From the sequence record NC_073061.1: DNA of 45,251 nt. One strand, given 5' to 3'. The first letter of the stretch is position 1; every line of letters starts with the position of its first letter. The stretch is from Escherichia phage vB_EcoS-101114BS4. The position numbers and the translations under genes are program-made. Shown piece after piece: positions 9,991 to 40,963 of the stretch. The notes below the pieces were generated by a model, which ran no database searches, was not told the origin of the DNA, and worked only from the letters and a program-made list of their open reading frames with translations.

Positions 9991-10017
9991 TGTGCAACCA
10001 ATATAGTGCAACCAATA
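9991..10017. promoter_or_regulatory. Divergent control region with two direct TGCAACCAAT motifs
   Basis: TGCAACCAAT at 9993-10002 and 10008-10017, between the minus-strand start at 9970 and the scaffold start at 10120. Confidence 0.5.
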
Positions 10018-18622: not shown

Positions 18623-18629
18623 TAAAATG

Positions 18630-24837: not shown

Positions 24838-24844
24838 ATGAGAA

Positions 24845-27662: not shown

Positions 27663-27668
27663 TGAGAA

Positions 27669-27690
27669 GGGGCCATACGGCCCCTTTTTT
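27669..27690. terminator. Terminator (bidirectional) between the fibre gene and the end of the leftward operon
   Basis: ggggcc-atac-ggcccc hairpin followed by tttttt. Confidence 0.75.
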
Positions 27691-28264: not shown

Positions 28265-28306
28265 TGTGAAGCCCTCATTGCTGCGGGCCGAAGCCCGCTA
28301 TTAGAA

Positions 28307-28900: not shown

Positions 28901-28950
28901 GATGTTTTCCTTTTAGTGGGGGCCGGATTGCCCCGACGCGTTAACTATAG

Positions 28951-28972
28951 TGCAACCAACCTATTGGTTGCA
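28951..28972. promoter_or_regulatory. Perfect palindrome TGCAACCAA-CCTA-TTGGTTGCA (candidate operator)
   Basis: 9-bp inverted arms with a 4-bp spacer, overlapping the stop codon of the HAD gene and 50 bp upstream of the next start. Confidence 0.6.
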
Positions 28973-29431
28973 AGTAAATTTTGCTACGTTTATAGAATAA
29001 ATTTTCGGGACCAGATCGCCGCACGCGCGACGGATGGCTTCGATATTCTTCGGGCAGTCTTCAATGATGACCAGTTCGGACACGTCCGCATAGCACACCA
29101 TTTTGAACACCGCGCACGCCTTAAACTCTGGCGGCGGGGTGTCATCCAGCATGTGGCGCATAAACAACCGGCCCACCGGGAAGATCTCCAGTTGCTCGGC
29201 GGTGGTGTCCCAACATTCGCGCTGCCGGTTTGTCAGATACGCGATCTCGAAGCCTTGCTCTTTGTACATGCGCAACAGCGGCAGCATATCCATGTTAAGG
29301 TCTTCGCGTACGTGTGCTTTGTGCCACTTCGCCCAAAAGGTTGATTTGGTTTTTATGCCGGGCACCAGGTCAGCACGCGCATCACTTGAACCATTAATAA
29401 CGCCATCCAGATCACAAATCAGTAGTTTCAT
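28961..29431 (-). CDS. HAD-superfamily phosphatase, 5'(3')-deoxyribonucleotidase-like
   Basis: N-terminal HAD motif I LICDLDGVI; 156 aa. Confidence 0.55.
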   Translation of the reverse strand: MKLLICDLDGVINGSSDARADLVPGIKTKSTFWAKWHKAHVREDLNMDMLPLLRMYKEQGFEIAYLTNRQRECWDTTAEQLEIFPVGRLFMRHMLDDTPPPEFKACAVFKMVCYADVSELVIIEDCPKNIEAIRRACGDLVPKIYSINVAKFTCNQ

Positions 29432-29652: not shown

Positions 29653-30118
29653 GTAGTTCTCTCTCGCTCATTATTTCAATTTGTGCGCTGCCGTTTGGCG
29701 GCGCTTCATCAAATATTATCAATTGCTGGCACTTGTTATTGCTCGGCCCAACTTCGCCGGTCACAGCATGGATGAATCGCACACGCCAGTCCAGAAGAAT
29801 TATCATATTGGCAGTCTTCCGGGCCAGCTTCGCCCACTTCGTTGACGTGTCCTGATTCAGTAGCATGACAGTACGGCGTCCGTGCGCAGCGCACTCGACC
29901 CACGGCAGCGGATCGGAGTACGGCGGATTGCACCACTTCCACCCTTTCAACTCTGACCAGTCCGCCTCAAGCGCGCTATGCTCCGCCGTGAAGTAGCGCG
30001 GTAGCAGGTGATTGGTGTCGCTTGCCGCCATATCGTAACGGAATCGGTATTTCTTACGAAGCGGTTTAAATAAAGCTGGCGGCGTACGCCAGCTATCTTT
30101 TTGCTCACTCTTCGTCAT
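29633..30118 (-). CDS. DNA N6-adenine methyltransferase, phage Dam-like
   Basis: WCNPPYS (motif IV N-PP-Y) and upstream WRTPPALFKPL, about 160 aa, consistent with the short phage Dam family; start chosen at the ATG at 30118. Confidence 0.6.
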   Translation of the reverse strand: MTKSEQKDSWRTPPALFKPLRKKYRFRYDMAASDTNHLLPRYFTAEHSALEADWSELKGWKWCNPPYSDPLPWVECAAHGRRTVMLLNQDTSTKWAKLARKTANMIILLDWRVRFIHAVTGEVGPSNNKCQQLIIFDEAPPNGSAQIEIMSERELHEYLSR

Positions 30119-30569
30119 TCTGCGGGTCCAGTGCGTATAGGGCAATCTTTTCGTATTTGCCGACTATGCGATGCACGCGCTTTGCGTCCTCTTCACTACG
30201 TGGGCGCGCATCCGGGTAGTAGCTACCCGTCTGAGTATTGTGCCACGCCACAAGCACCAAATCTTTACGATCAACCTTAGACTGTCTACCTTTAGGTCGC
30301 ACGTACTCCTCCGCACGTTTGCAATGTTCCCGCAGCCCTTCGGCAGTGATGCGGTTTAGCGCAACGCTGGTTGTGTATCCGGTGCGCTGCATAATCCCCA
30401 TCAATTCGAAAAGCAGTTCGAAGCGTTCCTCTAACTCCCGGCGCACTTTCTTCTCTCCTTCATATAGCGCCTGGTTGGTGTCCGCCAGCGCGTTCGCGCG
30501 TTCGGCCTGTTCACGGGCTTCGAGGCATTGCGCGGCCCAGTATGCTTTTTCTTCTTGTAAAATTTTCAT
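30105..30569 (-). CDS. Hypothetical coiled-coil protein
   Basis: ATG at 30569 (MKILQEEKAYWAAQ...) with GGAG RBS; the GTG at 30611 lies inside the terminator hairpin and is rejected. Confidence 0.55.
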   Translation of the reverse strand: MKILQEEKAYWAAQCLEAREQAERANALADTNQALYEGEKKVRRELEERFELLFELMGIMQRTGYTTSVALNRITAEGLREHCKRAEEYVRPKGRQSKVDRKDLVLVAWHNTQTGSYYPDARPRSEEDAKRVHRIVGKYEKIALYALDPQNDEE

Positions 30570-30588
30570 CGTGTTGTCTCCAGGTATT

Positions 30589-30613
30589 AAAAAGGGCGTC
30601 CAACCGGACACCC
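30589..30613 (-). terminator. Internal intrinsic terminator in the leftward operon
   Basis: On the minus strand: gggugucc-gguu-ggacgccc hairpin (one G-U pair) followed by uuuuu. Confidence 0.55.
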
Positions 30614-30623
30614 TTAAGATAAT

Positions 30624-30648
30624 GCAACCAATCTAATTACGCAACCAA
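30624..30648. promoter_or_regulatory. Pair of direct GCAACCAAT motifs
   Basis: GCAACCAA at 30624 and 30641 (17-bp spacing) between the stop of gene 30650..30973 and the internal terminator. Confidence 0.5.
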
Positions 30649-30649
30649 T

Positions 30650-30973
30650 TTATTCATAAAAATTCGGGTCGCGCGCTACATCTACCAGATAAAGGTTGCT
30701 CATTCGGTTGCCGTAGTGCCCTGGCGTGCGCTGGCGACACACAACTGCGAAGCCTGGAGGGATTGTATTGCCGGTTTCGATAATCCACGCCACGCGCGCG
30801 CCAGACAGCTTCTTGCCGTTGCATTCGATACGCGTACCGCCATCGGCAGTGTTAAGGTTGCCAATCTTGCAGCCGGTGGACTTCAGACGGATGACGCCGG
30901 TCTTACTGTCGTAGGTGAATAGTTGGTTAGTCATTGCGACCGAAAAATCGATGGCTTCGAATGTAGTGTTCAT
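30650..30973 (-). CDS. Hypothetical protein
   Basis: 107-aa ORF with GAGGA RBS; a C-terminal H..N..N pattern is too weak to call an HNH nuclease. Confidence 0.5.
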   Translation of the reverse strand: MNTTFEAIDFSVAMTNQLFTYDSKTGVIRLKSTGCKIGNLNTADGGTRIECNGKKLSGARVAWIIETGNTIPPGFAVVCRQRTPGHYGNRMSNLYLVDVARDPNFYE

Positions 30974-31665
30974 TTTAAATTTTCCTCATTGACTGCTATT
31001 GCGAAGCCGCGCGGAGTGAGCGACCGGATTAATTTGGTGCGGGCAGATTTGCCACCGAGGCGACTATACTGCTTCGAGTACCCTTTTTCAACGAATACCG
31101 GCTTTTTCTCCGGCATACGAAAGCCATTGCCAGTCCATAAACAGGTCAGCTTTGGGTATGAATCGCGGTCGTTGATGTATTCCGGGAACAACGGATGTAC
31201 GTCATCCTCCGGCAGATAGCCGCCATATTCCCACGGATCAAACGAGTGGTCTGGCTTGCGCCACTGGGTGGATAGCACACTGCGCGGATTCTCAATCATA
31301 TATGGCACTTCAAAGAAGTCACCCAGGTAAGCGGCAATCTTCGCGGTGCGCACTGCCTTAAGCTGAAAGGCGGGGTCTTTCGCACGCTTGCACGGGAAAG
31401 CTGGCGCACCGCTCACCGCCAGATCCGTACACGGCGGAAACGCGTAGATAATATCCGGCGTGCCGAAATCGCCATTCATCGCGCGGTCCACGAAGTCCAG
31501 ATCGATAAACTCGTTACGATAGCGGATACCGCGACCATAAATCCGGTAGTCAAGGTAAGACCCGTGATCGGCTTCCGAGTAGTTGAAACAGTAGCATTTA
31601 TGCCCCATCTCGGCAGCGCGCTCTATCATCAAGCCGCTGCCGTCAAATAATGACCAGATAATCAC
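30970..31665 (-). CDS. Compact C5-cytosine methyltransferase-like protein
   Basis: GTG start with AGAAGG RBS; motif I SLFDGSG, motif IV FPPCTD (catalytic Cys), motif VI-like ENP; only 231 aa, leaving little room for a target-recognition domain. Confidence 0.55.
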   Translation of the reverse strand: MIIWSLFDGSGLMIERAAEMGHKCYCFNYSEADHGSYLDYRIYGRGIRYRNEFIDLDFVDRAMNGDFGTPDIIYAFPPCTDLAVSGAPAFPCKRAKDPAFQLKAVRTAKIAAYLGDFFEVPYMIENPRSVLSTQWRKPDHSFDPWEYGGYLPEDDVHPLFPEYINDRDSYPKLTCLWTGNGFRMPEKKPVFVEKGYSKQYSRLGGKSARTKLIRSLTPRGFAIAVNEENLK

Positions 31666-33086
31666 TTGCGCACCTTCTTAGCTTTCATGTATTCCATCAA
31701 GTCGTCCTGGATGTCGCGCTTACCATCGCGGCGGTCCGCCACCAGTTCGTCCAGTGTCCCGCGTGCCTGGATAATATAGACGAATACCGGTCGAGGGTGC
31801 CCGGCTTGCATCTGGCGAACTGGCCCGATACGCTCCACGATCTGCGCAAAGTGCTCATAGTTCCACGTATCCGAGAAGATAGCCAGGTGATGACCGCCGT
31901 CCTGCAAGTTAAGGCCGTGACCAGCCGATGCCGGGTGTGCGAACATGATGGGAATCTCGCCCCTGTTCCACGCTTCCATATCCTTATTGCCCTGCTTACC
32001 CTTACCCATCGCAACGCCGTGGGGAAACTTCTTCTTCAGACGTGCCAGGTCGTGCTTGTACTGGTACGCAACGAGCAACGGCGCTCCGTTCAACTCCTCT
32101 ACGATACTTTCCAGCGCGTCCAGCTTGGCGTCGTGAATCTTCTCCCACTCGTCGGTCCGCTCTCCGTCTTCGTCCACCTTATACACGGCACCGGATGCAA
32201 GCTGAAGGCACTTGATGGTCTTAGCCGCAGCGTTCGCCGCTTCCACTGTTCCGCTTTCCAGTTCGGCAAATAGCTCACTCTCAAACTGGTCATAAATCTT
32301 GCGGGCTTTCTTCGGCAGGTCCACGACAACCGGCGTGTAGATTGGCTTGTCACATCCGAAGTATTCAGCCGCGTCCACGGTAAGGGATACATCGGACAGG
32401 CGCTGTTGGATCTCCTTCTCGGAGTTCTTTAGCGGGGCGTGCTGCATAGTGAAGCTGCCTGGCTTAACAGGCTTGCTAATAAACCAGCGATCGGTGAATG
32501 CCTTATAGCTACTGCCGAGTCGTTCGCCACCGTCGACAAACCACGTCTGGCCCCATAGGTCTTTCAGTCCGTTTGGTGCTGGTGTGCCGGTCAGGTTAAT
32601 CCAGCGCCTGACGTGCTTATGTGCGATCGCCGCCAGTGCGCGTGCGCGCTTACTGCCTTGCTTGCTGCGATAGCCTTTCAGCTTAGTGGATTCATCGGCA
32701 ACAACGACCGTAAAAGGCCACTCGTCGCCGCAATACTCGACAAGCCACTCAACAACATCGTAGTTGACACAAACCACGTTAGCGTTGCTCTCAAGCGCCG
32801 CAATGCGGTCCTTCTCTGGCCCGGTGCCGTCTACTACCAGCAGGGCGGGGAATCTCCATTTTTCTTGTTCCGGGGGCCACGTACCGGACGCAACGCGCAG
32901 CGGGGCCAGCACCAGTACGCGGTCCTCCTGGTTGGACAGGATGCCAGTCTGGAACATTTTGTTTAGCGCCCACATAGTCGCGCCGGTTTTACCGGACCCC
33001 ATTGTCGCCCAAATATTGCAGCGCTCATGCTTGAGAATAAACGCGGTTATCAATTTCTGATATTCGCGACGTCGGAATCGTGCCAT
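31662..33086 (-). CDS. SNF2/DEAD-like ATP-dependent helicase
   Basis: Walker A ATMGSGKTG, DExx box VVADESTKL, NLTGTPAPN; 474 aa from the ATG at 33086. Confidence 0.75.
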   Translation of the reverse strand: MARFRRREYQKLITAFILKHERCNIWATMGSGKTGATMWALNKMFQTGILSNQEDRVLVLAPLRVASGTWPPEQEKWRFPALLVVDGTGPEKDRIAALESNANVVCVNYDVVEWLVEYCGDEWPFTVVVADESTKLKGYRSKQGSKRARALAAIAHKHVRRWINLTGTPAPNGLKDLWGQTWFVDGGERLGSSYKAFTDRWFISKPVKPGSFTMQHAPLKNSEKEIQQRLSDVSLTVDAAEYFGCDKPIYTPVVVDLPKKARKIYDQFESELFAELESGTVEAANAAAKTIKCLQLASGAVYKVDEDGERTDEWEKIHDAKLDALESIVEELNGAPLLVAYQYKHDLARLKKKFPHGVAMGKGKQGNKDMEAWNRGEIPIMFAHPASAGHGLNLQDGGHHLAIFSDTWNYEHFAQIVERIGPVRQMQAGHPRPVFVYIIQARGTLDELVADRRDGKRDIQDDLMEYMKAKKVRK

Positions 33087-33090
33087 ATCT

Positions 33091-33309
33091 TTATTCCGCC
33101 TTTTTCCAGACTTCGGTTTCACTGTTCCAATTCCTCTTTGTGGCGTCGTAGTTGGTGGCGTGTCCAATGTGCACACCGGTCGCGCGGAAGCTCTTAAACT
33201 TCTGCCAGCACACTGTCAACGGCAGCGGGTAATTCATGCCTGCGATAAACCATACGCGATCGCCAGGTTTGCACTCGCCCAGCTTGGTGAGTCGGTAATG
33301 TTCTTTCAT
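33091..33309 (-). CDS. Hypothetical protein
   Basis: About 72 aa; start at the third in-frame Met for RBS spacing. Confidence 0.45.
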   Translation of the reverse strand: MKEHYRLTKLGECKPGDRVWFIAGMNYPLPLTVCWQKFKSFRATGVHIGHATNYDATKRNWNSETEVWKKAE

Positions 33310-33351
33310 CGTCATGCCTCCAAAAATGGCGGGACAAGCCCGCCGTATTGA

Positions 33352-33525
33352 TTATTCTTGTTCTGCGCGATAGCGGCGCTGCCGTTCACGTTCTTTCTTA
33401 TTGCGGCACGATTTGCACTCGGCCCGATGCCCGTCTGGACTGCGCGCAGTCTTTCCGGTGTATTTGTGGAACTGGGATAGCGGCTTGATGCAGCCGCAGT
33501 TACTGCAACGTTTTTCTTCAATCAT
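33352..33525 (-). CDS. Zinc-ribbon protein
   Basis: 57 aa with CSNCGC...CKSC (two CxxC pairs); GAGGA RBS. Confidence 0.5.
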   Translation of the reverse strand: MIEEKRCSNCGCIKPLSQFHKYTGKTARSPDGHRAECKSCRNKKERERQRRYRAEQE

Positions 33526-33565
33526 TTCTAAAATCCTCGATAGGGCTAACCGGCACACTATACCG

Positions 33566-33844
33566 CTACGCGACCAATTCAGCAACCAATAAATCGCAGT
33601 CGGCTATGTTGTCAATAACGCGAACGTCAGCACCGCGGCGGGCCATTCGCTCATGTTCTAGCACCTGGTGCGGCTTCGGTTTTCCGCCGGGGCGCTTCAC
33701 TTCGACGAATACTATGATGCCGTTGATGATAATAATCAGGTCGGGCGCACCTGCGCGCCCCTCCCATGCCAGTTTACGGCAGAATCCGCCGACCTCTTTC
33801 ACCCGTCGCATCAGGTGACTTTGTATCTTGCCTTCGGGTGTCAT
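33566..33844 (-). CDS. VRR-NUC domain nuclease
   Basis: APDLIIIINGIIVFVEVKRPGGK carries the PD-(D/E)xK signature in the VRR-NUC arrangement; 92 aa. Confidence 0.7.
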   Translation of the reverse strand: MTPEGKIQSHLMRRVKEVGGFCRKLAWEGRAGAPDLIIIINGIIVFVEVKRPGGKPKPHQVLEHERMARRGADVRVIDNIADCDLLVAELVA

Positions 33845-34032
33845 TTGGTTTGCAACTCCACGTTACGCAGACGGAGGTCTACCGGTATGTCCGATCGCCC
33901 GGTTAGCGCCAGCGCCAGGTTTTCAGGCGTGACAAGTGCCGTGATGGTCTTGCCACGTTCCAGTCTAAGGACGATGCGAATCTCGTCATCGTCCGTCGCG
34001 CCAGCGCGCATTATGCTTAATTCTGCTTTCAT
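33841..34032 (-). CDS. Hypothetical protein
   Basis: 63 aa from the ATG at 34032 (MKAELSIMRAG...) with AGGAAG RBS. Confidence 0.45.
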   Translation of the reverse strand: MKAELSIMRAGATDDDEIRIVLRLERGKTITALVTPENLALALTGRSDIPVDLRLRNVELQTK

Positions 34033-34036
34033 AATC

Positions 34037-36328
34037 TTACTTCCTATACCGATACATGATGTCGCCTTCGGCGGCAAGTGGGAAACCTTTCGCCCATATA
34101 GGCAGGTCACACATCAGCGCGCAAAGCTCCTCGGTCGTGTAATCGTCGGTGTCCGGCACTTCGGTGATCAATTCATCGTGCACTGACAGGACGATTTCAT
34201 AGCCCGCAGCTTCAACACCAGGCATGGACCATGCGAGAATATCGCGGCACAACGCCTGTACGATGTTCTCCGTAAGTTTGCCGCCGTAGGTATACTGGAA
34301 TCCCCACTGGCGCGTCGTCTGATTCTCGCCCTGATATTTGATGCGGGTACTGGTGCGCTTCTTGCCGGTGTCTTCGTCAATCTCGGTAGTGACAGACAGC
34401 GCGATTCCGGGGTAGCTCATGATTCGCCCTGACGGCAACTCAACCTTCAGCCACCAGCCCGCGGCGTTCGGGTCGTCGCGTTCCTCGTCAAAGGTGGGGT
34501 CGTGCTTCGCCTTCGTGCGCACAATCTTGAGCGCTTTCTTGCCATCCGGGCGAACGTTCGCGCCAGCCCAGTATGCCTTACCTGGATTGCGTATCGCACA
34601 TAACACCGCCTCCTCAAGCTCGGCCCAAAAGGCTACGGTCTTCGGGTGAGATTCACGCCACATACGTTTGATCGCGTCGCAGGTCAACCACACGTTTTTA
34701 GGCAGTATGTAAGTCGGGCGCTCGTCTTTCTTGCCGGGCTTCGGCGGGCGCTTCGCTTCGTTGATGCGGGCAAACTCATAACCGCGTTTAGCCGCCGCCC
34801 AAATATGATCGGGGAATGTTCCCTTCATGACGTCAGCCATTGCGTACAGGTCGAGGCCCAGGTTTTTAGCAAACTGCAAGAACGCCGCGACGCCGCCACC
34901 ATAGCCCAGTCCCAATTCACACGCCTTACCAATCTGGCGTAGGTCTTTGCGGTTGGCTTTGATGTAGTCCGGGTCAAGGCCAAACATCTTACCGGCAGTT
35001 TCACAATAGATATCGCGTCCGGCCTTAAACACCATAAGCGCGGTTTTCTCGCCAGCGATCCAGGCAAGGCCACGCCCTTCCACGTTGGAGTAGTCCGCTA
35101 CAACAAACTTCTTGCCATTAGCCGGGATAATGCACCCGCGAACGGTCGAGGCGGTTAGCTTCGATATGTCATACGCCCAGTGCGCGGTCCCGCGTAACAG
35201 GGAGTTGATGCCGTTGGTGAGCATGTGCGACCGTACCCAAAACGAGACGTCGCTCTCACCTTCGCGGCGCTTAATCTTCCCTTCGTGGTCATCACTGTAC
35301 TCGCCACGTGCCAGGTTTTGAGGCTGAAAGCCTTTACCGGCCCAGCGTAGTGTGCGCTTTGCCCCACCATACTGAAGACAACCACGGCGGCGACCATCGG
35401 CAGAAAGACCATTGACGAGCGGATTGTATTTAGTCGATGCCGTTGATGACGCGCCGAGGCGCATTTCAATAAGCACTTTGCCCTCGTCGGGGAAGTCTGG
35501 ATCTTCCAGCAAGTCATTCAGCGTGGATTTCTGCGCGTTGTGAATGGTGAACGCCGGGGCAATATCACGCAGGATTGGCAGGAAGTCATTACCGGTCAGT
35601 TTACCGCCGAACAGTTCCCAGGCTTCTTCCTTCAATTCTTCTTTGTGCACCTGCACCGCCTTGATCGCGGCGTTCGCCAGGTCAACGTCCACATAGAAGC
35701 CACGGTCGTTAATCAACTGGTCGATACGCAGGATTTCATCTTCCTTTGGTGAGTTGCCCCAGTCCGGTATTCGCCAGTAGACTTCACGCATTGCGATAAT
35801 ATCTAGCGCGGCATAGCGCAGGAATTTAGCCCATTCTTCAGGGTGAGTCTCGCGCGTGTAGCGGCGGATTTTGTAGGTCTTAGGGGTCGGCTTACAAAAT
35901 CGCTTAATCAGCGCCTTGCCTGCCTTATCCTTCGCGTGCTCTGCGTCAACGCCCAGCACCTGGCATTGCATATCGAGGCCACCCGGCAGCGCGTGACGAA
36001 AGGCCATAATCATCGTATCTTCGATCTGGCTTACCGGCAGGTCGATGCCCCACTTTTCACGGATAACCAAGCGGTCAAACAGGAGGCCGTTAGCCATCAC
36101 TATTTTTGCTTTCTTGCGGGTTACCTGGCGTAGCGCCTTGCGCAGTTCACGCGGCATCGTGGGGGATTCAGTGGCGTCCCATGTCTGCACGCGGCCCTCG
36201 TCGATGGCGTAGGTGCAAATCATAATCTCGGTGGATGGGTGTTCTGCATAGGCATACGCACCTGCTTTCTTCAGGTCCACCCCGCTATATGTCTCGGTGT
36301 CAAGAAACAGGCGTTCGAAGTCTTTCAT
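34037..36328 (-). CDS. DNA polymerase I (family A) with 3'-5' exonuclease domain
   Basis: Exo motifs LFLDTETYSG, YAALDI; polymerase motifs DYSNVEGRGLAWIAG (A), RQIGKACELGLGYGGG (B), VLSVHDELITEV (C); 763 aa. Confidence 0.9.
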   Translation of the reverse strand: MKDFERLFLDTETYSGVDLKKAGAYAYAEHPSTEIMICTYAIDEGRVQTWDATESPTMPRELRKALRQVTRKKAKIVMANGLLFDRLVIREKWGIDLPVSQIEDTMIMAFRHALPGGLDMQCQVLGVDAEHAKDKAGKALIKRFCKPTPKTYKIRRYTRETHPEEWAKFLRYAALDIIAMREVYWRIPDWGNSPKEDEILRIDQLINDRGFYVDVDLANAAIKAVQVHKEELKEEAWELFGGKLTGNDFLPILRDIAPAFTIHNAQKSTLNDLLEDPDFPDEGKVLIEMRLGASSTASTKYNPLVNGLSADGRRRGCLQYGGAKRTLRWAGKGFQPQNLARGEYSDDHEGKIKRREGESDVSFWVRSHMLTNGINSLLRGTAHWAYDISKLTASTVRGCIIPANGKKFVVADYSNVEGRGLAWIAGEKTALMVFKAGRDIYCETAGKMFGLDPDYIKANRKDLRQIGKACELGLGYGGGVAAFLQFAKNLGLDLYAMADVMKGTFPDHIWAAAKRGYEFARINEAKRPPKPGKKDERPTYILPKNVWLTCDAIKRMWRESHPKTVAFWAELEEAVLCAIRNPGKAYWAGANVRPDGKKALKIVRTKAKHDPTFDEERDDPNAAGWWLKVELPSGRIMSYPGIALSVTTEIDEDTGKKRTSTRIKYQGENQTTRQWGFQYTYGGKLTENIVQALCRDILAWSMPGVEAAGYEIVLSVHDELITEVPDTDDYTTEELCALMCDLPIWAKGFPLAAEGDIMYRYRK

Positions 36329-36495
36329 TGCTTTATCCTCACTACTGCGTCAGCGCTGCCGATCATGGAGAAGATACCATCCGACAAGGCAATCTCTTCG
36401 CCGTTGTTGCGAATCTCGGCAACGGTAAAATACTCGCCCAGCAATTTGGACCATACACGCATTCCGACTTTTACTTCACTGGCTTTAATACGCAT
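36325..36495 (-). CDS. Small hypothetical protein translationally coupled to the polymerase gene
   Basis: About 56 aa (MRIKASEVKVGMRVWSKLLGEYFTVAEIRNNGEE...); its stop overlaps the polymerase ATG (ATGA). Confidence 0.35.
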   Translation of the reverse strand: MRIKASEVKVGMRVWSKLLGEYFTVAEIRNNGEEIALSDGIFSMIGSADAVVRIKQ

Positions 36496-36510
36496 TTTCA
36501 TTGTCCTAAT

Positions 36511-36534
36511 AAAAAGCCCGCAATAAGCGGGCTT
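36511..36534 (-). terminator. Internal intrinsic terminator between the SSB-like and polymerase genes
   Basis: On the minus strand: gcccgc-uuauu-gcgggc hairpin followed by uuuuu. Confidence 0.6.
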
Positions 36535-36552
36535 GAATAGTGGGCTTTGCCC

Positions 36553-37341
36553 TTAACGGCGGCGACGTTTACGTGGTGCTTCGTCTTCGTCGTCGTCGTC
36601 CTCATCTTCGTCATCGCGGGACTTGCGACGCTTGCGAGGTTTTTCGTCTTCCTCGTCTTCGTCATCGTCATCACGACGCTTGGATTTCTTGGACTTGCGC
36701 GGCTTATCATCTTCGTCATCGTCATCACGACGTTTGGACTTCTTAGCCTTGCGCGGTGCTTCATCTTCGTCATCGTCGCCCAGGTCGTCATCGGAACAAG
36801 AAGACCCGCCGCCACCGAAGGAGTCACCATCGTCACGGAAGCGAAGACCCATCAAGCCAGCACCAAGACCTTTACCGTTGGTGTTGTTCCACGCCCAAAT
36901 ATCCAGGGACACGTTGCAATAACAACCGGAATAGATTTCCTGGCCTTCGATCTCGTCGCCGTCGATGGTCAGACCCTGTTCGGTCTGCTTCTCGCCCAGT
37001 GACGTTTGAATGTTAGGCTGTTTGAACGATTTGGCGTTGATGTACAACATGCCTTCGAATTCTTCGGTTACTTCGTCGCGCTCGTCGCCGTCACGAACTG
37101 CGCATTCCTTAGAATCCTGGGCGTAGTGGCGGTCCATCCACTTATCGGCGTTCTTCTCGGATTTCAGCTTATCGGTAAGCACTGCGCGCGCTGCCGCTTC
37201 CACTTTGTCCACCTGCGGATCTTCTTTATCAAGAAGAATCACGGCACGGTATGCCGGTTTTTGTCCATCCTGTTTAGGGGTATCACGTTCCCAAATTTTC
37301 AGGAAGCATACGCGTACATTTTTCAGGTTGACTTTAGCCAT
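36553..37341 (-). CDS. Putative ssDNA-binding protein with a highly charged repetitive C-terminal tail
   Basis: Start MAKVNLKNVRV with GAGGA RBS; position between nuclease and polymerase as in conserved phage replication modules; C-terminal 80 aa are alternating acidic and basic repeats. Confidence 0.45.
   Translation of the reverse strand: MAKVNLKNVRVCFLKIWERDTPKQDGQKPAYRAVILLDKEDPQVDKVEAAARAVLTDKLKSEKNADKWMDRHYAQDSKECAVRDGDERDEVTEEFEGMLYINAKSFKQPNIQTSLGEKQTEQGLTIDGDEIEGQEIYSGCYCNVSLDIWAWNNTNGKGLGAGLMGLRFRDDGDSFGGGGSSCSDDDLGDDDEDEAPRKAKKSKRRDDDDEDDKPRKSKKSKRRDDDDEDEEDEKPRKRRKSRDDEDEDDDDEDEAPRKRRRR
36575..36790 (-). repeat. In-frame tandem repeats encoding the charged tail of the SSB-like protein
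   Basis: About 57-bp unit repeated about three times (...atcttcgtcatcgtcatcacgacg(c/t)ttgga(t/c)ttcttgg...) giving DDDDEDxKPRKxKKSKRR repeats. Confidence 0.75.
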
Positions 37342-37395
37342 TTTCATTTCCTCATTTCGCATGTATCGGGGTTATTGTGAGCCACCCCGTTCGGC

Positions 37396-37419
37396 TTGGT
37401 TGCTAATTTACTTGGTTGC
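37396..37419. promoter_or_regulatory. Pair of direct TTGGTTGC motifs (reverse orientation of GCAACCAA)
   Basis: cttggttgc at 37395-37403 and 37411-37419 in the gap between genes 37430..37672 and 36553..37341. Confidence 0.5.
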
Positions 37420-37429
37420 GCCTAAGCGG

Positions 37430-37672
37430 TCAAGCACTTTTATTAAAAAGATTTCGTGTCACGTAGTTGGTGGCGTTCTCGATCCAGCTTAACGGCGGGC
37501 GGTCGATGTGCTTCTCAACCCAGTCGACGGCGACGTCGCTATATCCGTCGTCCAGCCAGCGGGATGGATGGCGAATCATCCAGGCCAACATTAACACGCC
37601 TTGCACGCAATGCAGGATAAATCCCAGCGCGCCGAGCATAATCATCAATACGAATGCGAATACCTTATTCAT
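37430..37672 (-). CDS. Small membrane protein
   Basis: 80 aa with N-terminal hydrophobic helices (VFAFVLMIMLGALGFILHCVQGVLMLAWMI). Confidence 0.5.
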   Translation of the reverse strand: MNKVFAFVLMIMLGALGFILHCVQGVLMLAWMIRHPSRWLDDGYSDVAVDWVEKHIDRPPLSWIENATNYVTRNLFNKSA

Positions 37673-39095
37673 TGCTTAAGTCCTCGTCAGTAGCTTCAGA
37701 CCACGCGGGGCGCGGGTCGTCGATTGGTGCCAATACCGGTTTAGCCGGTGCGCGCGTGATTTTATCACACAATTTAGCCCACACTTTCGGTTTCTCGTCC
37801 TTCAATACCTTCTCGGCATCGGTAGGACTGAGCAATGTTTCTTTGTACATTACATCGCGCTTGATCCGGGCCTTCGTGAAGATTTCAATCACTTCGCTCT
37901 CATCCGCCCACTTGCGATTACCTTCCTTACCGGCAACCATCTTGAGGCCCAGCGATTCGCCATCACCCGCCATCACCGCCTTGAATACTGCGGACTCGAT
38001 AGCCTTGATGTGCTGACGCATTGCGTCGAGGCCTTCGTATGCATTACGCAGTTCCGCCGCGCTCATAGCGCCTGGTGCCGCCTCCTTTTTGCCACGCTTC
38101 GCACGTCGTGCCGCTTTCCGGGCTTCGCGGGTCATATTGCGGTCGTGGTTGGCGCATTCTTCCTCTGTCGCCACGCTCACGTCGTCGCCCAGGTCTTCGT
38201 CGGTTGCCGTTGGTGGGGTCATCGTGTCGATGGCGGCCTTAGCGCGGGCACTACACTGATCCGCAAATCGGCACCACTGACAGGCGTCAACGCTCGGTCG
38301 GAAGTCGGCACGGGTAAGTCCCTTCTTGCCTCGGGAATACGCGTCCAGTGCCGCGACCGCTCGCTTGGACGCAAACTTAGCGAATATCTCCAGCGCTTCC
38401 ACTGTAATATCCCACTCCGACGCCCCGCCGCAATACGGCTGGAAGATTACCAGGCGAACGGTCGTAATGTCGTACATGGTTTGCAGCTTGCGCAGCAGGC
38501 CCAGCGCGTACAACATAAGCTGTTTGTTTTCTTTCGCCTCGACCTTATGTCGCCCGGTCTTCAGGTCGCCAACAATAAGCATGTACGTGCCGTCGGTCTT
38601 CTTCATGACCATGACCATATCGGCAGTGCCAAACGTCTTCACCCTGTTGCCGTCTATCTCGAAGCCAGGGTGCAAGATGCGGGTGAGATCGGCGCGCATT
38701 TCAAGCTGGACAAACTCCGCCACTTCAAGGAGCGGTCGCCAGTGGTCGATGTACGCGTCACACTGTTTCACCATATCGTCGTTGACCAGTACGCCGCCTT
38801 TCGGTGCTTTCGGGTGCGCCTTTACCGGCCCCTTACCTTCGTTCTCAACGTAACACCCTTTGTACGTCTTCGCGGATAGCTTCTTCTCTCCGGCAATGAT
38901 GCGGTTTAGCACGACTTCTGATACGGTGTGCATACTCGTACCGTTAATCGCAGCTTGCCCGGATTCGTTCGGGATACCTTTTTCGACTACCAGGGCGGCG
39001 GGGCACCCCATCCATTTTTTAGATCCCGATGGCCCGAGTAATGAGTGTTCGGTATTGCTACCGGATTGCGTTTTGCGCTTTGGTTTAATAGCCAT
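37665..39095 (-). CDS. Cas4/RecB-like PD-(D/E)xK exonuclease with iron-sulfur cysteine cluster
   Basis: N-terminal Cys (WMGCPA), IVGDLKTGRHK and QLMLYALGL nuclease motifs, then CQWCRFADQC (CxxCx5C); 476 aa. Confidence 0.6.
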   Translation of the reverse strand: MAIKPKRKTQSGSNTEHSLLGPSGSKKWMGCPAALVVEKGIPNESGQAAINGTSMHTVSEVVLNRIIAGEKKLSAKTYKGCYVENEGKGPVKAHPKAPKGGVLVNDDMVKQCDAYIDHWRPLLEVAEFVQLEMRADLTRILHPGFEIDGNRVKTFGTADMVMVMKKTDGTYMLIVGDLKTGRHKVEAKENKQLMLYALGLLRKLQTMYDITTVRLVIFQPYCGGASEWDITVEALEIFAKFASKRAVAALDAYSRGKKGLTRADFRPSVDACQWCRFADQCSARAKAAIDTMTPPTATDEDLGDDVSVATEEECANHDRNMTREARKAARRAKRGKKEAAPGAMSAAELRNAYEGLDAMRQHIKAIESAVFKAVMAGDGESLGLKMVAGKEGNRKWADESEVIEIFTKARIKRDVMYKETLLSPTDAEKVLKDEKPKVWAKLCDKITRAPAKPVLAPIDDPRPAWSEATDEDLSNE

Positions 39096-39280
39096 TATTC
39101 CACCCTTGTAAACTGGACAATTACATATTTACAGATATTAGCCATTCCCGCCTGTTCGACACGGCGGTGCACTTCATGCTGCGCATCTATCCAGCACATC
39201 GAGGCGTCATGGTTAACAACCATAAAAGAGAAGTGGTCGTTTGTTTTGTGGCAAGTTGCCAGCACGAAGAATTTAGCCAT
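39095..39280 (-). CDS. Hypothetical protein
   Basis: 61 aa from ATG 39280 (MAKFFVLATCH...), overlapping the upstream stop (TAATG). Confidence 0.4.
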   Translation of the reverse strand: MAKFFVLATCHKTNDHFSFMVVNHDASMCWIDAQHEVHRRVEQAGMANICKYVIVQFTRVE

Positions 39281-39531
39281 TATTTCGTCTCCCAACGGTC
39301 AATTACTTTTTCCTCCGACGATACGGCAAAGCGAACATATTCCAGATTGGAGTCCGCCCAAATATAGAAGTCGGGGTTAGTAAATGTGGTGCGCTTAATT
39401 TGCGCGGGGTTATCGCGGCGTTTATCTATTACGGCAACGCGTGATTTAAAGTTGCCGGTACGTTCGAATAGCCAATAATAAGGGCGCTGGTCGCGTGAAT
39501 CCACCGCCTCGATTAGCGTGAAGCGTGCCAT
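39280..39531 (-). CDS. Hypothetical protein
   Basis: 83-aa ORF (MARFTLIEAVDSRDQRPYYW...) with GAGGA RBS. Confidence 0.5.
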   Translation of the reverse strand: MARFTLIEAVDSRDQRPYYWLFERTGNFKSRVAVIDKRRDNPAQIKRTTFTNPDFYIWADSNLEYVRFAVSSEEKVIDRWETK

Positions 39532-39544
39532 TGTCTCGTCCTCT

Positions 39545-39571
39545 AAAAATAGGCCCGCAGATTAGCGGGCC
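39545..39571 (-). terminator. Internal intrinsic terminator in the leftward operon
   Basis: On the minus strand: ggcccgc-uaaucu-gcgggcc hairpin followed by uauuuuu. Confidence 0.6.
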
Positions 39572-39579
39572 GGATAATA

Positions 39580-39705
39580 TTAATCTTCACCGCCGAGTTG
39601 TCTATAAACCTCGTCCGGGTCGTCGCCTCTTTCTTCGCAGAAGGCGGTGAATGCCGCCCAATTTTCTGCTATGAAATCGAGCGTGATTCTCATTTCATAG
39701 TCCAT
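39580..39705 (-). CDS. Small acidic hypothetical protein
   Basis: 40-aa ORF (MDYEMRITLDFIAENWAAF...) below the ORF-track size cutoff, ending at the internal terminator. Confidence 0.3.
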   Translation of the reverse strand: MDYEMRITLDFIAENWAAFTAFCEERGDDPDEVYRQLGGED

Positions 39706-39709
39706 TATA

Positions 39710-40228
39710 TTAATCTTCTAATTCGAAATAAGTTTCGACGATTGCTTTTAATTCCTGGTGGAACTCTTCCACGTCGTCATCTTCCAGCTTGGCAACGGAT
39801 TTAATTTCGAATTCTTCCAGCAGGTCGTCAAATTCGTCGTTTGCGTCGTCGTCATCACCGCCAGCAATAATAGCGGCATACTGCTTGATTTCGTCGCGCA
39901 TCTCTTTCAGCGGATCGGCATCTTTCTTGCCTTTACCTTTCGCCGGTGCTTTCTTAGATTTCGCCGGGGCTTCTTCTTCGTCGTCCGCGTCGTCTTCTTC
40001 TACGGCTTCTTTCTTAGCCTTGCCCTTTGCTGGCGCTTTTTTGGTCTTAGCCGGTGCTTCGTCTTCAGCGTCGTCATCTTCGACTACTTCTTCTTTTGCC
40101 TTGCCCTTAGCCGGGGCTTTCTTCGCTTCCTGTTTACCAACGGCAGCGCCAGCAGTTTCATAATGCTTAGCGATGGTTTCCAGTGCTACTACGCCGCGTG
40201 TGATCAGGTTTACGATTTGCTCAAACAT
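39710..40228 (-). CDS. Lys/Ala/Glu-rich repeat protein (histone H1-like composition), first gene of the leftward operon
   Basis: ATG 40228 (MFEQIVNL) with GGAG RBS; repeats EAPAKTKKAPAKGKAKKE; the upstream in-frame ORF extension is treated as 5' leader. Confidence 0.55.
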   Translation of the reverse strand: MFEQIVNLITRGVVALETIAKHYETAGAAVGKQEAKKAPAKGKAKEEVVEDDDAEDEAPAKTKKAPAKGKAKKEAVEEDDADDEEEAPAKSKKAPAKGKGKKDADPLKEMRDEIKQYAAIIAGGDDDDANDEFDDLLEEFEIKSVAKLEDDDVEEFHQELKAIVETYFELED

Positions 40229-40424
40229 TGTATATCTCCGATTGGTTAAGTTTAGGTGTCGGCAGTCAACTTCGTCGGTGGCCTTAACATAGTGCCAGGT
40301 TACGCGTTCTCCCTTTCGGGTAGTGGACCTGGTTATATAATCACGGTTGGGAATCCTGACACTTCGATCCGGCCCCTGCGTTGCCCCTCTCCAGTTTGCG
40401 TCCTGCATCCTGTCGACGGAGTGA

Positions 40425-40454
40425 ATAATAGATTGGTTGCAGGTGGGGTGTCAA
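40425..40454 (-). promoter_or_regulatory. Candidate sigma70 promoter for the leftward operon
   Basis: On the minus strand: TTGACA, 18 bp spacer, TATTAT; the spacer contains TGCAACCAAT; leader of about 190 nt to the ATG at 40228. Confidence 0.5.
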
Positions 40455-40465
40455 CAACTAATTTC

Positions 40466-40524
40466 AAAAAAAAAAAAGCGCCGAGGCAAAATGCGACGGC
40501 GCTAACCAATAAGAGACAATGAGA
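40466..40524 (-). ncRNA. Candidate small RNA unit (promoter, about 60 nt, intrinsic terminator)
   Basis: Minus-strand TTGAAA-N17-AATAAT (40532-40560) followed by hairpin gcgccg...cggcgc and a U12 tract (40466-40502); the transcript would contain ugucucuuauugguua. Confidence 0.3.
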
Positions 40525-40573
40525 CGTGATTATTATTACACGCGTGCGCGCCCGTTTCAATATACAAAAGGAG

Positions 40574-40602
40574 TTGACACCCTGCAATTTTAGGTGTAGT
40601 TT
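40574..40602 (+). promoter_or_regulatory. Candidate sigma70 promoter for the rightward operon
   Basis: TTGACA (40574-40579), 17 bp spacer, TAGTTT (weak -10), 30 bp upstream of the ATG at 40634. Confidence 0.4.
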
Positions 40603-40633
40603 CGTTGGTCATTAACCAATAGGAGACAGAACA

Positions 40634-40963
40634 ATGCATATCAACGACGCTATCGAAATGTTAACTAAGACCGTAAGCGGTGAGACAAGCCGGTCCTGGG
40701 CTTATACCGATGCCGTTGGTGCGGCGTTATTTGAAATCGAACGCCTGCGCAGTGTCGAAAAAGAATTGCGCGCCAAGCTGGAATTACTCAACGGTACGGC
40801 AGCAAGCAAGCTGCAAAAACACAATGAAGAAATGGAAGAATACAAAAAGCAGGTTATCCGTTTACGCGACGAGGGCAAGTCCTGGGCGATGATTGCCGAG
40901 TTGACCGGAATTAATCAGAGCACCGTGCGCTCCTGGGTACGCAATAATAAAACTTCTAAGTAA
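40634..40963 (+). CDS. Putative transcriptional regulator with C-terminal HTH
   Basis: 109 aa; C-terminal SWAMIAELTGINQSTVRSWVRN is HTH-like; first gene of the rightward unit. Confidence 0.5.
   Translation: MHINDAIEMLTKTVSGETSRSWAYTDAVGAALFEIERLRSVEKELRAKLELLNGTAASKLQKHNEEMEEYKKQVIRLRDEGKSWAMIAELTGINQSTVRSWVRNNKTSK

What the first reader, a model, noticed from the sequence alone, without database searches (positions are those of the whole stretch)
30589..39571. Intrinsic terminators embedded within the leftward early operon
Minus-strand hairpin plus U-run structures lie between genes at 39545..39571, 36511..36534 and 30589..30613, each followed immediately by the RBS of the next gene. This suggests graded or antitermination-controlled expression (replication genes, then polymerase, then methyltransferases and accessory genes), although no antiterminator is identified here.
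Basis: inference. Interest (0 to 1): 0.35.

Follow-up and report, generated by a model that had tools for sequence, protein, structure and literature searches.

The report
Leaky terminators punctuating a phage operon
The three hairpin-plus-U-run sites are real, conserved, ordinary transcription terminators inside the early operon of a Dhillonvirus coliphage; they probably trim rather than stop transcription, and near-identical phage records already annotate them.

Summary
The window is a Dhillonvirus (HK578-like E. coli siphovirus), 97% identical to vB_EcoS_WFI. All three hairpin + U-run sites exist as described.

Such sites are far commoner than in shuffled sequence, and 12 of the 13 strongest in the genome are intergenic and co-oriented with the upstream gene. 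All five are conserved in 13/13 Dhillonvirus loci. The SSB|polymerase terminator also recurs at the same junction in Kagunavirus and Jerseyvirus, with different stem sequences.

At four of the five sites (all but the promoter-proximal 40503..40465), only 7-19 nt separate the U-run from the next start codon. Exonuclease, polymerase and helicase therefore depend on read-through.

Each embedded terminator lies one gene downstream of a promoter-like element, so the operon reads as promoter-gene-leaky terminator cassettes. Site 3 is overlapped by a promoter-like element and abuts a disputed cos site.

I found no antiterminator protein or RNA. Published proteomics of a relative detected, among early proteins, only the two encoded just upstream of sites 1 and 2. 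Graded expression is supported and antitermination is not.

Homologous terminators are already annotated in GenBank. This is an ordinary finding.

The parts
40532..40560 (-). P_L2: promoter-like site TTGAAA-17-(TGt)AATAAT. It would give a transcript of about 55 nt ending at T0.
   Evidence: conserved in 12 unique Dhillonvirus sequences. Consensus match only; no TSS data.
40465..40503 (-). T0: hairpin AGCGCCGTCGCATTTTGCCTCGGCGCT plus a T12 run, upstream of P_L1.
   Evidence: dG -16.2. Conserved in 13/13 loci, with the T-run varying from 7 to 12. A positional analogue with a different sequence occurs in L011.
40425..40454 (-). P_L1: main leftward promoter-like site TTGACA-18-TATTAT (11/12), with a GCAACCAAT operator-like motif in the spacer.
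39710..40228 (-). First leftward gene: a 172-aa acidic/basic repeat protein (phrog_3127).
   Evidence: Homologue EE09_56 was detected by MS in infected cells.
39545..39571 (-). It starts 8 nt after the upstream stop codon and ends 13 nt before the next ATG.
   Evidence: Annotated as a terminator in WFI.
37405..37433 (-). Internal promoter-like site TTGACC-17-TAAATT with two GCAACCAAG motifs, upstream of ssb.
   Evidence: Kagunavirus/Jerseyvirus carry an 11/12 sigma-70 promoter at the same position.
36553..37341 (-). Gp2.5-like ssDNA-binding/annealing protein (DUF2815).
   Evidence: Homologue EE09_61 was detected by MS.
36511..36534 (-). It starts 18 nt after the ssb stop and ends 9 nt before the ATG of the 58-aa gene that precedes the DNA polymerase gene.
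   Evidence: Annotated as a terminator in WFI.
34037..36501 (-). 58-aa gene plus DNA polymerase I. There is no promoter between T2 and these genes, so their expression needs read-through.
33557..33585 (-). Weak promoter-like site TTGCTG-17-TATAGT with two motif copies, upstream of the Lar-like gene.
   Evidence: Consensus match (8/12) plus conservation only.
33322..33344 (-). It starts 7 nt after the Lar-like stop and ends 7 nt before the next ATG.
   Evidence: Annotated as a terminator in WFI.
31063..31091 (-). Promoter-like site TTGAAA-17-TATAGT (10/12) inside the methyltransferase gene, upstream of hnh.
   Evidence: Almost invariant among 12 Dhillonvirus sequences while flanking codons vary.
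30616..30649 (-). Pair of ATTGGTTGC motifs plus TTGGTTGC-at-TATCTT, a promoter-like composite overlapping site 3. The predicted TSS is about 30609, inside the 5' arm of the T4 hairpin.
30611..30620 (-). ATCTTAAGGG: the 10-nt 5' cohesive end predicted by PhageTerm for the related phage EE09 (disputed).
   Evidence: Contradicted.
30589..30614 (-). It starts 35 nt after the hnh stop and ends 19 nt before the next ATG.
   Evidence: Annotated as a terminator in WFI.
28944..28973 (-). Promoter-like site TTGCAA-18-TATAGT with inverted motif copies, upstream of the last two genes.
27666..27687 (.). Hairpin at the convergent end of the leftward operon and the tail-fibre gene. The U-run is good on the + strand only.

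Best explanation
The sites are Rho-independent terminators for host RNA polymerase that punctuate, rather than end, a 12.7-kb leftward operon of about 21 genes.

The operon is built from repeated cassettes of promoter-like element, one gene, terminator:
- P_L1 - 172-aa protein - T1
- P(37433) - SSB - T2
- P(33585) - Lar-like - T3
- P(31091) - HNH - T4

Between the cassettes lie blocks of genes with no promoter of their own: exonuclease; polymerase; helicase and methyltransferase; Dam, PNK and others. Each terminator sheds part of the transcription arriving from the promoters upstream. The gene just before it (for example the stoichiometric SSB) is therefore made in excess over the catalytic genes after it, which are transcribed by read-through.

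Read-through is likely intrinsic, not factor-mediated. The U-runs are only five U long and are interrupted. T1 and T3 start 7-8 nt after a stop codon, where a terminating ribosome occludes the 5' arm of the hairpin.

At T4 a promoter-like composite overlaps the hairpin. Its transcripts would start inside the 5' arm and so escape termination.

Shown: structure, non-randomness, placement, conservation, lack of room for downstream promoters, absence of known antiterminators. Inferred: termination in vivo, partial efficiency, promoter activity, ribosome effect.
For: - The hairpin + U-run anatomy is present, and folding is better than shuffles.
- Sites are enriched 3- to 13-fold over dinucleotide shuffles.
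- Twelve of the 13 strongest are intergenic and co-oriented. The sites are unidirectional, with no T-run on the + strand (read).
- T0, T1, T3 and T4 are present in 13/13 Dhillonvirus loci. Stems are invariant while loops vary or flip, and T4 has a compensated stem change in L008/L009. In the 81%-identity relative L011, T0 and T1 keep their positions with unrelated stem sequences.
- A terminator lies between ssb and pol in 65 of 73 loci. These include Kagunavirus and Jerseyvirus, where the stems differ: AGCCCGC, AGGCCC, AGGCGGC, GCCCGG.
- The same phages have an 11/12 sigma-70 promoter just before ssb.
- The U-run-to-ATG distance is 7-19 nt, so no promoter can fit downstream.
- Stop-to-hairpin distances are 8, 18, 7 and 35 nt. 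Terminators that close to a stop codon are strongly repressed by ribosomes in E. coli (PMC4824070).
- In EE09-infected cells the only early proteins detected were EE09_56 and EE09_61 (PMC10673088). These are the homologues of the genes immediately upstream of T1 and T2.
- Stepwise, leaky termination is documented in other phages (bioRxiv 10.1101/2022.03.18.484859).
- No phage RNA polymerase gene appears in the annotation of Bas83, the fully annotated relative, or among the early-region window proteins scanned with PHROGs.
Against: - There is no transcript 3'-end or read-through measurement for any Dhillonvirus, so termination and its efficiency are predicted only.
- Promoter calls rest on consensus, position, conservation and a co-occurring 9-mer. 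Strong sigma-70 matches are not enriched in the window (3 real versus 4.4+-2.2 in shuffles).
- Several of the promoter-like sites are weak, at 8-9 matches of 12.
- The proteomic support is thin: four phage proteins detected, at one time point, in a different isolate.
- If each terminator were highly efficient, distal genes would be starved unless the internal promoters or an unknown factor compensated.
- Site 3 may have a DNA-level role (see the cos rival).
Confidence: 0.72

Rival explanations
1. Processive antitermination. The terminators are efficient barriers, and a phage-encoded factor or cis-acting RNA (lambda N/Q-like, HK022 put-like, P23-45 gp39-like) makes RNA polymerase resistant to them, which times the expression of distal genes.
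For: - Essential genes (exonuclease, polymerase, helicase) lie behind T1-T3 with no promoter of their own.
- A promoter-short transcript-strong terminator layout (P_L2-T0) sits at the head of the operon, superficially like lambda P_R'-tR'.
- Many small early ORFs have no known function.
- The rightward and late operons also carry embedded terminators.
Against: - None of the 30 early-region proteins scanned with PHROGs, nor the 14 scanned with Pfam, matches an antiterminator family.
- Rfam gives no hit at gathering thresholds and only chance-level sub-threshold hits.
- boxA-like matches are fewer than expected by chance.
- The 190-nt P_L1 leader folds no better than shuffles. It is replaced in several relatives and is only about 45 nt in L011.
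- Short, interrupted U-runs and short stop-to-hairpin distances already predict leakiness.
- Internal promoter-like elements reduce the need for it.
Confidence: 0.1
2. The hairpins are mainly RNA-stability or processing elements. They protect the 3' ends of upstream messages (or mark cleavage sites) and contribute little to termination.
For: - Stable GC-rich hairpins at 3' ends are known to block 3' exonucleases (general knowledge).
- The genes just upstream (172-aa protein, SSB) are the early proteins seen by MS. Higher mRNA stability would also produce that result.
- A similar hairpin without a U-run exists at 28298..28283.
Against: - Every one of T0-T4 has a conserved U-run directly after the stem, which stabilisation alone does not need.
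- The stems are 6-10 bp, too short for RNase III (general knowledge).
- A stabilising role does not exclude termination. It needs a 3' end to be created there, and termination is the simplest way.
Confidence: 0.1
3. Site 3 only: the hairpin belongs to the DNA packaging site or genome terminus (cos), not primarily to transcription.
For: - PhageTerm on EE09 reads predicted a 10-nt 5' cohesive end, ATCTTAAGGG (PMC10673088).
- The EE09 record starts and ends there.
- In this window the same 10-mer lies at 30620..30611 and overlaps the 5' arm of the hairpin.
- Two conserved motif copies flank it.
Against: - Another Dhillonvirus, UDS3lw, was called headful/pac by the same tool (PMC13348001).
- The large terminase is T4-type (Terminase_6N/6C), and the small subunit weakly resembles Sf6/P22 gp3.
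- Of the 60 best-matching of 110 records, none but EE09 starts at this site.
- The 10-mer differs at two positions in most relatives (ATATTGAGGG), whereas the stem is preserved by compensatory change and the U-run is conserved, as expected for an RNA element.
- The flanking motif occurs 15 times in the genome, mostly at promoter-like sites, so it is not cos-specific.
Confidence: 0.12
4. The sites are chance inverted repeats next to T-rich sequence.
For: Lenient scans find many such patterns in shuffled sequence (21.9+-4.6 in the region).
Against: - Strong sites are enriched up to 13-fold over shuffles.
- Their placement is intergenic and co-oriented.
- They are conserved within and across genera with different sequences.
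Confidence: 0.01

Closest known systems
Annotated 'putative transcriptional terminator' features in Escherichia phages vB_EcoS_WFI (MK373791) and vB_EcoS_WF5505 (MK373790)
   Same: These are the same loci in a genome that is 97% identical. Terminators are annotated after the homologues of the 172-aa/small ORF, ssb, Lar-like and hnh genes, and at the operon end.
   Different: They are software predictions only. The accompanying paper mentions terminators once and does not discuss them. T0 is not annotated there.
Leaky intra-operon intrinsic terminators that set expression ratios (coliphage T7; stepwise termination in Pseudomonas phage LUZ7)
   Same: Hairpin + U-run elements lie between co-transcribed genes. 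Sequential partial read-through gives nested transcripts and graded expression.
   Different: Efficiency has been measured there and not here. Those phages use their own RNA polymerases for part of the programme, while this phage appears to rely on host polymerase.
Lambda N/Q and HK022 put processive antitermination of early and late operons
   Same: Several terminators lie downstream of divergent early promoters, with essential genes behind them. There is also a promoter-proximal strong terminator (T0).
   Different: I found no N, Q, nut (boxA/boxB), qut or put equivalent. Internal promoter-like elements are present, and the terminators look intrinsically leaky.
Morons (promoter-gene-terminator cassettes in lambdoid phages such as HK97)
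   Same: A single accessory gene (Lar-like, HNH) is preceded by a promoter-like site and followed by an intrinsic terminator.
   Different: The cassettes are co-oriented inside a lytic phage's early operon and are present in all 13 relatives examined. The same layout frames a core gene (ssb), and downstream genes depend on read-through.
Ribosome-dependent repression of terminators placed close to a stop codon (lambda tR2 reporter study, PMC4824070)
   Same: T1 and T3 begin 8 and 7 nt after a stop codon. That is the range in which tR2 was almost fully repressed.
   Different: This was not measured for these terminators, and the distance effect is sequence-specific in that study.

Membership tests
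Rho-independent (intrinsic) terminator | GC-rich stem-loop of about 5-12 bp with a short loop | tested here: met
   Stems of 6-10 bp, loops of 4-6 nt, dG -10.5 to -16.2 kcal/mol.
Rho-independent (intrinsic) terminator | U-run immediately 3' of the stem on the transcribed strand | tested here: met
   UAUUUUU, UUUUUAUU, AUUUUU, UUUUUAAU and U12. Conserved in relatives.
Rho-independent (intrinsic) terminator | Lies downstream of a gene and is co-oriented with transcription | tested here: met
   All sites are intergenic and on the sense strand. Twelve of the 13 strongest genome-wide behave the same way.
Rho-independent (intrinsic) terminator | Structure maintained in evolution independently of sequence | tested here: met
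   T2 position with four different stem sequences across three genera. T1/T0 analogues in L011. Compensated stem change in T4. No formal covariation statistic could be computed, because registers differ between clades.
Rho-independent (intrinsic) terminator | RNA 3' ends formed at the U-run in vivo or in vitro | not testable with these tools
   No transcript-end data for Dhillonvirus were found.
Lambda-type N or Q antitermination system | N- or Q-family protein encoded by the phage | tested here: not met
   None of the 30 early-region proteins scanned with PHROGs, nor the 14 scanned with Pfam, matches such a family. The only regulator-like protein is a 109-aa HTH protein (HTH_23 / Sigma70_r4_2).
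Lambda-type N or Q antitermination system | nut (boxA + boxB) or qut site downstream of the promoter | tested here: not met
   boxA-like matches are below chance. No RNA family hit.
HK022 put-type RNA antitermination | Conserved structured RNA just downstream of the early promoters | tested here: not met
   The leader fold has a z-score of -0.7. The leader is replaced or shortened in relatives.
Moron cassette | Own promoter upstream and terminator downstream of a single accessory gene | tested here: inconclusive
   The terminators are clear. The promoters are consensus and conservation calls only.
Moron cassette | Patchy presence among close relatives (insertion) | tested here: not met
   The Lar-like and hnh genes are present in all Dhillonvirus loci that cover the region.
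cos site (site 3 only) | Unique physical genome ends with a fixed single-stranded overhang | not testable with these tools
   One read-based prediction for EE09. It conflicts with the headful call for UDS3lw and with the terminase type.

The most novel reading that the evidence does not exclude
Site 3 is a three-in-one element. The cohesive-end cut site (30620..30611) would lie between the -10 element of a regulator-controlled promoter (30644..30616) and its start point inside the terminator hairpin (30614..30593). In that case both the promoter and the continuity of the operon exist only after the injected genome circularises or concatemerises. Expression of the downstream ligase-like, Dam and polynucleotide-kinase genes would then be physically coupled to end-joining, while the same hairpin stops transcription arriving from the early operon.
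Probability: 0.06. Interest if true: 0.6.

Novelty: already known. Interest (0 to 1): 0.17.

Why it matters
The main value is for annotation and engineering. It gives a coherent transcription map for Dhillonvirus phages, which are common in E. coli phage collections and therapy candidates.

- It explains why SSB and the first early protein can be abundant while polymerase and helicase are not.
- It identifies junctions (T1, T4) where gene modules are swapped between relatives.
- The conserved promoter-ssb-terminator-pol layout across Dhillonvirus, Kagunavirus and Jerseyvirus is a small but concrete example of regulatory architecture outliving sequence similarity.

None of this changes current understanding of termination.

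Tried and rejected
- **Rfam.** Scans at gathering thresholds and permissive thresholds gave nothing meaningful.
- **boxA.** The search gave fewer matches than chance.
- **P_L1 leader fold.** It is not unusually stable and is not conserved.
- **Antiterminator proteins.** PHROGs and Pfam on early proteins found no antiterminator family.
- **Paralogy of the small ORFs after each terminator.** There is no similarity between them.
- **Formal covariation test of T2 across genera.** I abandoned this because MAFFT put the stems in different registers. The argument rests on positional conservation with different stems.
- **Enrichment of strong sigma-70 matches.** They are not enriched (3 versus 4.4 in shuffles), so promoter calls are labelled as inference.
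- **T3 as a genome terminus.** Two contigs end inside its hairpin. I rejected the idea because the slur05 record restarts inside a truncated helicase gene, which makes it an assembly break.
- **P_L2-T0 transcript as an antisense regulator of the HTH gene.** A 17-bp duplex of -24.1 kcal/mol exists, but it is not the best hit in the genome and is not evidently conserved in L011. The question is left open.
- **Literature.** Searches found no Dhillonvirus or Jersey-like transcript maps.
- **Unreadable preprint.** A preprint on promoter-terminator coupling surfaced but could not be opened.

Full report
**Identity of the window.** The region 28000-41000 matches 180 phage records. The best is Escherichia phage vB_EcoS_WFI at 97.3% identity over 99% of the query, followed by other members of the genus Dhillonvirus (HK578-like E. 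coli siphoviruses). The WFI GenBank record already carries 'putative transcriptional terminator' features at the positions homologous to all three sites in the finding. It has one more between the Lar-like gene and the helicase block, and one at the operon end. The paper describing WFI does not discuss them.

**The observation.** The three hairpin + U-run elements are present at the stated coordinates on the minus strand. My own scan (RNAfold on the sequence 5' of every T-rich octamer) gives dG of -15.8, -14.7 and -15.9 kcal/mol. The tool's folds with flanks give z-scores of -3.0, -3.8 and -4.8.

The same scan finds two further minus-strand elements in the same transcribed region. T3 lies at 33344..33322 (dG -10.5). 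T0 lies at 40503..40465 (dG -16.2, twelve T). I number them T0, T1 (site 1), T2 (site 2), T3 and T4 (site 3).

**More than chance.** Compact sites with dG <= -10/-12/-14 number 24/18/13 in the window. Forty dinucleotide-preserving shuffles give 8.8+-3.1, 3.2+-1.7 and 1.0+-1.2. Of the 13 strongest, 12 are intergenic and point the same way as the upstream gene. The exception lies in the dam coding sequence.

The rightward and structural operons are punctuated in the same way. They have terminators after the major capsid, major tail and tape-measure genes, among others. Embedded terminators are therefore a genome-wide habit of this phage, not a peculiarity of the leftward operon.

**Gene map.** PHROGs and Pfam give the following order from the divergent promoter region at about 40420-40610 leftward:
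- a 172-aa acidic/basic repeat protein, then a 41-aa ORF, then T1;
- 83-aa, 61-aa, PD-(D/E)XK exonuclease, 80-aa, Gp2.5-like SSB (DUF2815), then T2;
- 58-aa, DNA polymerase I, 63-aa, VRR-NUC-type endonuclease, Lar-like protein, then T3;
- 72-aa, helicase, methyltransferase, HNH endonuclease, then T4;
- 154-aa (PHROG name 'DNA ligase'), Dam methyltransferase, 74-aa, polynucleotide kinase, 197-aa, 191-aa.

The operon ends at a hairpin shared with the convergent tail-fibre gene. The Bas83 record annotates the first gene on the wrong strand. The minus-strand product is a plausible protein with a PHROG match, and the plus-strand ORF is not plausible.

**Conservation.** Using the polymerase as bait I obtained 77 related loci with 97% to 35% protein identity. 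I mapped gene homologues and sense-strand terminators in each.
- T0, T1, T3 and T4 are present in all 13 Dhillonvirus loci that cover them.
- The stems are invariant while loops change.
- At T1 and T2 the loop is found in both orientations (TAATCT/AGATTA, TTAAT/ATTAA).
- T4 shows a compensated stem change, GTCC/GGAC to GTTCC/GGAAC, in L008 and L009.
- In L011 (81% polymerase identity) T0 and T1 keep their places with unrelated stem sequences. T1 again starts 6 nt after the stop codon and again has an interrupted U-run.

The strongest result concerns T2. A terminator lies between ssb and pol in 65 of 73 loci with both genes. These include the 60-65% identity clade, which I identified as Kagunavirus and Jerseyvirus. 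The stems there are AGGCCC/GGGCCT or AGGCGGC/GTCGCCT, against AGCCCGC/GCGGGCT in Dhillonvirus. The loci at 34-40% polymerase identity mostly lack it: of the nine in the set only L073 has one, and in L075 ssb and pol are only 18 nt apart.

**Read-through is required.** The U-run ends 13, 9, 7 and 19 nt before the next start codon at T1-T4. A Shine-Dalgarno-like sequence lies in between, so no promoter fits downstream. The exonuclease block, the polymerase block and the helicase block have no promoter-like site of their own. They must be transcribed through T1, T2 and T3.

**Promoter-like elements.** Strong sigma-70 matches are not enriched overall (3 at >=10/12 against 4.4+-2.2 in shuffles). 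I therefore treat promoters as inference from position, conservation and context.

With that caveat, each embedded terminator lies exactly one gene downstream of a promoter-like element:
- P_L1, TTGACA-18-TATTAT, before the 172-aa gene;
- TTGACC-17-TAAATT at 37433..37405, before ssb;
- TTGCTG-17-TATAGT at 33585..33557, before the Lar-like gene;
- TTGAAA-17-TATAGT at 31091..31063, before hnh.

A further one lies at 28973..28944, before the last two genes. The site at 31091 is almost invariant inside a coding region whose flanking codons vary.

In Kagunavirus and Jerseyvirus an 11/12 promoter (TTGACA-17-TATAGT or TATATT) precedes ssb in nearly every locus. The promoter-ssb-terminator-pol layout is thus conserved across three genera.

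**Why the terminators are probably leaky.** The U-runs have five U and are interrupted (UAUUUUUA, AUUUUUGG, UUUUUAUU). T1 and T3 begin 8 and 7 nt after a stop codon, T2 begins 18 nt after, and T4 begins 35 nt after.

[quoted passage not shown] It reached its maximum efficiency of about 0.9 only beyond about 30 bp, because the terminating ribosome prevents hairpin formation (PMC4824070). That offers a factor-free route to read-through at T1 and T3, and partly at T2. This step is inference.

**Site 3 is different.** It is the terminator farthest from a stop codon, and it is preceded by two exact copies of ATTGGTTGC. The composite TTGGTTGC-NN-TATNNT occurs exactly three times in the window, against 0.14 expected with one mismatch allowed. 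All three lie upstream of minus-strand genes, and one is at 30631..30616.

In most relatives the hexamer at site 3 is TATATT. That makes the 20-mer almost identical to the one at 10015..10000. A start about 7 nt downstream would fall at about 30609, inside the 5' arm of the T4 hairpin. Such transcripts could not form the terminator.

T4 may therefore stop transcription from the upstream operon while a regulated promoter restarts it. This is inferred from sequence only. The abstract of a 2026 preprint on promoter-terminator coupling surfaced, but I could not open it.

**Antitermination.** I found no evidence for it.
- None of the 30 early-region proteins scanned with PHROGs, nor the 14 scanned with Pfam, matches an N, Q or other antiterminator family.
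- The only regulator-like product is a 109-aa HTH protein (HTH_23, Sigma70_r4_2), which is the first gene of the rightward operon.
- Rfam gives nothing, and boxA-like strings are below chance.
- The 190-nt leader after P_L1 is neither unusually structured nor conserved.

Unknown small proteins remain, so antitermination is not excluded. I give it about 0.1.

**Experimental hint.** In the Dhillonvirus EE09, mass spectrometry of infected cultures at 25 min detected four phage proteins: CDS29, CDS40, CDS56 and CDS61 (PMC10673088). From the GenBank record and tblastn, EE09_56 contains the homologue of the 172-aa protein (82% identity). EE09_61 is the SSB (96% identity). EE09 has T1, T2 and T3 in the same places.

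The only early proteins detected are thus the two encoded immediately upstream of T1 and T2. This agrees with graded expression, but it is a single, shallow data set.

**A caveat for site 3.** The same paper reports a PhageTerm prediction of a 10-nt 5' cohesive end, ATCTTAAGGG, and the EE09 record begins and ends there. In this window that 10-mer lies at 30620..30611 and overlaps the 5' arm of T4.

Several observations argue against a cos site there:
- Another Dhillonvirus was called headful by the same tool.
- The large terminase is T4-type, and the small subunit weakly resembles Sf6/P22 gp3.
- Of the 60 best-matching of 110 records, none but EE09 starts at this site.
- The 10-mer differs at two positions in most relatives, while the stem and the U-run are conserved.

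I keep this as a rival for site 3 only, at about 0.12.

**Comparison with known systems.** The elements meet every sequence-level criterion of Rho-independent terminators. Only in vivo 3' ends are untested.

In function they most resemble leaky intra-operon terminators. Such terminators are described for T7. They have also been measured in phage LUZ7, where more than 60% of termination sites allow substantial read-through and stepwise termination is seen. The Lar-like and HNH cassettes resemble morons in layout, but they are not patchily distributed. The system does not qualify as a lambda-type or put-type antitermination system.

**Verdict.** It is unsupported about antitermination, and it is incomplete about promoters and further terminators. 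The features are ordinary and already annotated in near-identical public genomes. Interest is low.

Noticed in passing
window, 15 exact copies: 1771, 9994, 10008, 26110, 28963, 30624, 30641, 33582, 40432, 43250, 43285, 43567, 43657, 43688, 44243 (9-mer start positions): The 9-mer ATTGGTTGC (reverse complement GCAACCAAT) occurs 15 times exactly, where about 0.35 is expected. Copies are mostly intergenic, often in pairs, and overlap promoter-like sites. Some form TTGGT-N5-ACCAA palindromes upstream of ribosome-binding sites. The motif is present in all Dhillonvirus loci and absent from Kagunavirus and Jerseyvirus. It looks like the operator of a phage regulator; the 109-aa HTH protein at 40634..40963 is the obvious candidate.
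   Followed up: partly
window 40560..40465 (-): A good promoter-like site (extended -10) is followed after about 55 nt by a strong terminator with a 12-T run, all upstream of the main leftward promoter. This could be a small RNA or a promoter-proximal attenuator. Its 5' part can form a 17-bp duplex (-24.1 kcal/mol) with the ribosome-binding region of the HTH gene. That is not the best hit in the genome, and it is not evidently conserved in L011.
   Followed up: partly
window 30620..30611 (-); L081 1-10 and 44170-44198: The 10-mer ATCTTAAGGG, published as the 5' cohesive end of the related phage EE09, overlaps the 5' arm of the site-3 hairpin. This conflicts with a headful prediction for another Dhillonvirus and with the T4-type large terminase.
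   Followed up: partly
window 39564..39559 and 36526..36522; loci L003, L012, L013, L042, L043: The loops of the T1 and T2 hairpins occur in both orientations among close relatives (TAATCT versus AGATTA/ATATTA; TTAAT versus ATTAA) while the stems stay identical. This is what inversion across a perfect palindrome would produce.
   Followed up: partly
window 30074..30094, both strands: A perfect 8-bp hairpin with T-rich tails on both strands lies inside the dam gene, 10 nt after the stop codon of the overlapping upstream gene. It is encoded by the conserved SWRTPPALF motif and is conserved in all relatives. It could be a coding-sequence coincidence or an internal attenuator.
   Followed up: no
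window 28298..28283 (-): GCGGGC-UUCG-GCCCGC, a tetraloop hairpin without a U-run, lies in the 42-nt gap between the last two leftward genes. It may be an RNA-stability element.
   Followed up: no
window 39916..40123; ORF 39710..40228 (-): The first leftward gene contains 2.5 copies of an 87-nt repeat encoding alternating lysine-rich and acidic stretches (KKAPAKGKAKK / EDDDAEDE). The Bas83 record annotates the opposite strand here. The homologue is one of only two early proteins detected by MS in EE09.
   Followed up: partly
L003 (slur05) end and L012 end, homologous to window about 33340: Two assemblies end inside the T3 hairpin. The slur05 record restarts within a truncated helicase gene, so these are assembly breaks at a palindrome and not genome termini.
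   Followed up: yes
window + strand: 479-508, 1711-1732, 3519-3539, 8607-8625, 12034-12055, 14865-14881, 18629-18653, 24843-24862, 27666-27687: The rightward and structural operons carry equally strong embedded terminators, notably just after the major capsid, major tail and tape-measure genes. The one at 1711 is followed at once by a motif-bearing promoter-like site (1741-1770).
   Followed up: partly
loci L014-L069, between the exonuclease and ssb homologues: Kagunavirus and Jerseyvirus carry a near-consensus promoter (TTGACA-17-TATAGT or TATATT) before ssb. Its spacer holds a palindrome (AATAGTTAGCTATT), possibly their own operator.
   Followed up: partly
window 39580..39705 and 30570..30105; alignments: T1 and T4 sit at mosaic junctions. 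The 41-aa ORF before T1 is present in only 3 of 13 relatives. In six of the twelve relatives aligned, a 243-nt gene follows T4 in place of the 154-aa gene that follows it directly here. The hairpin and the ribosome-binding site stay conserved.
   Followed up: partly
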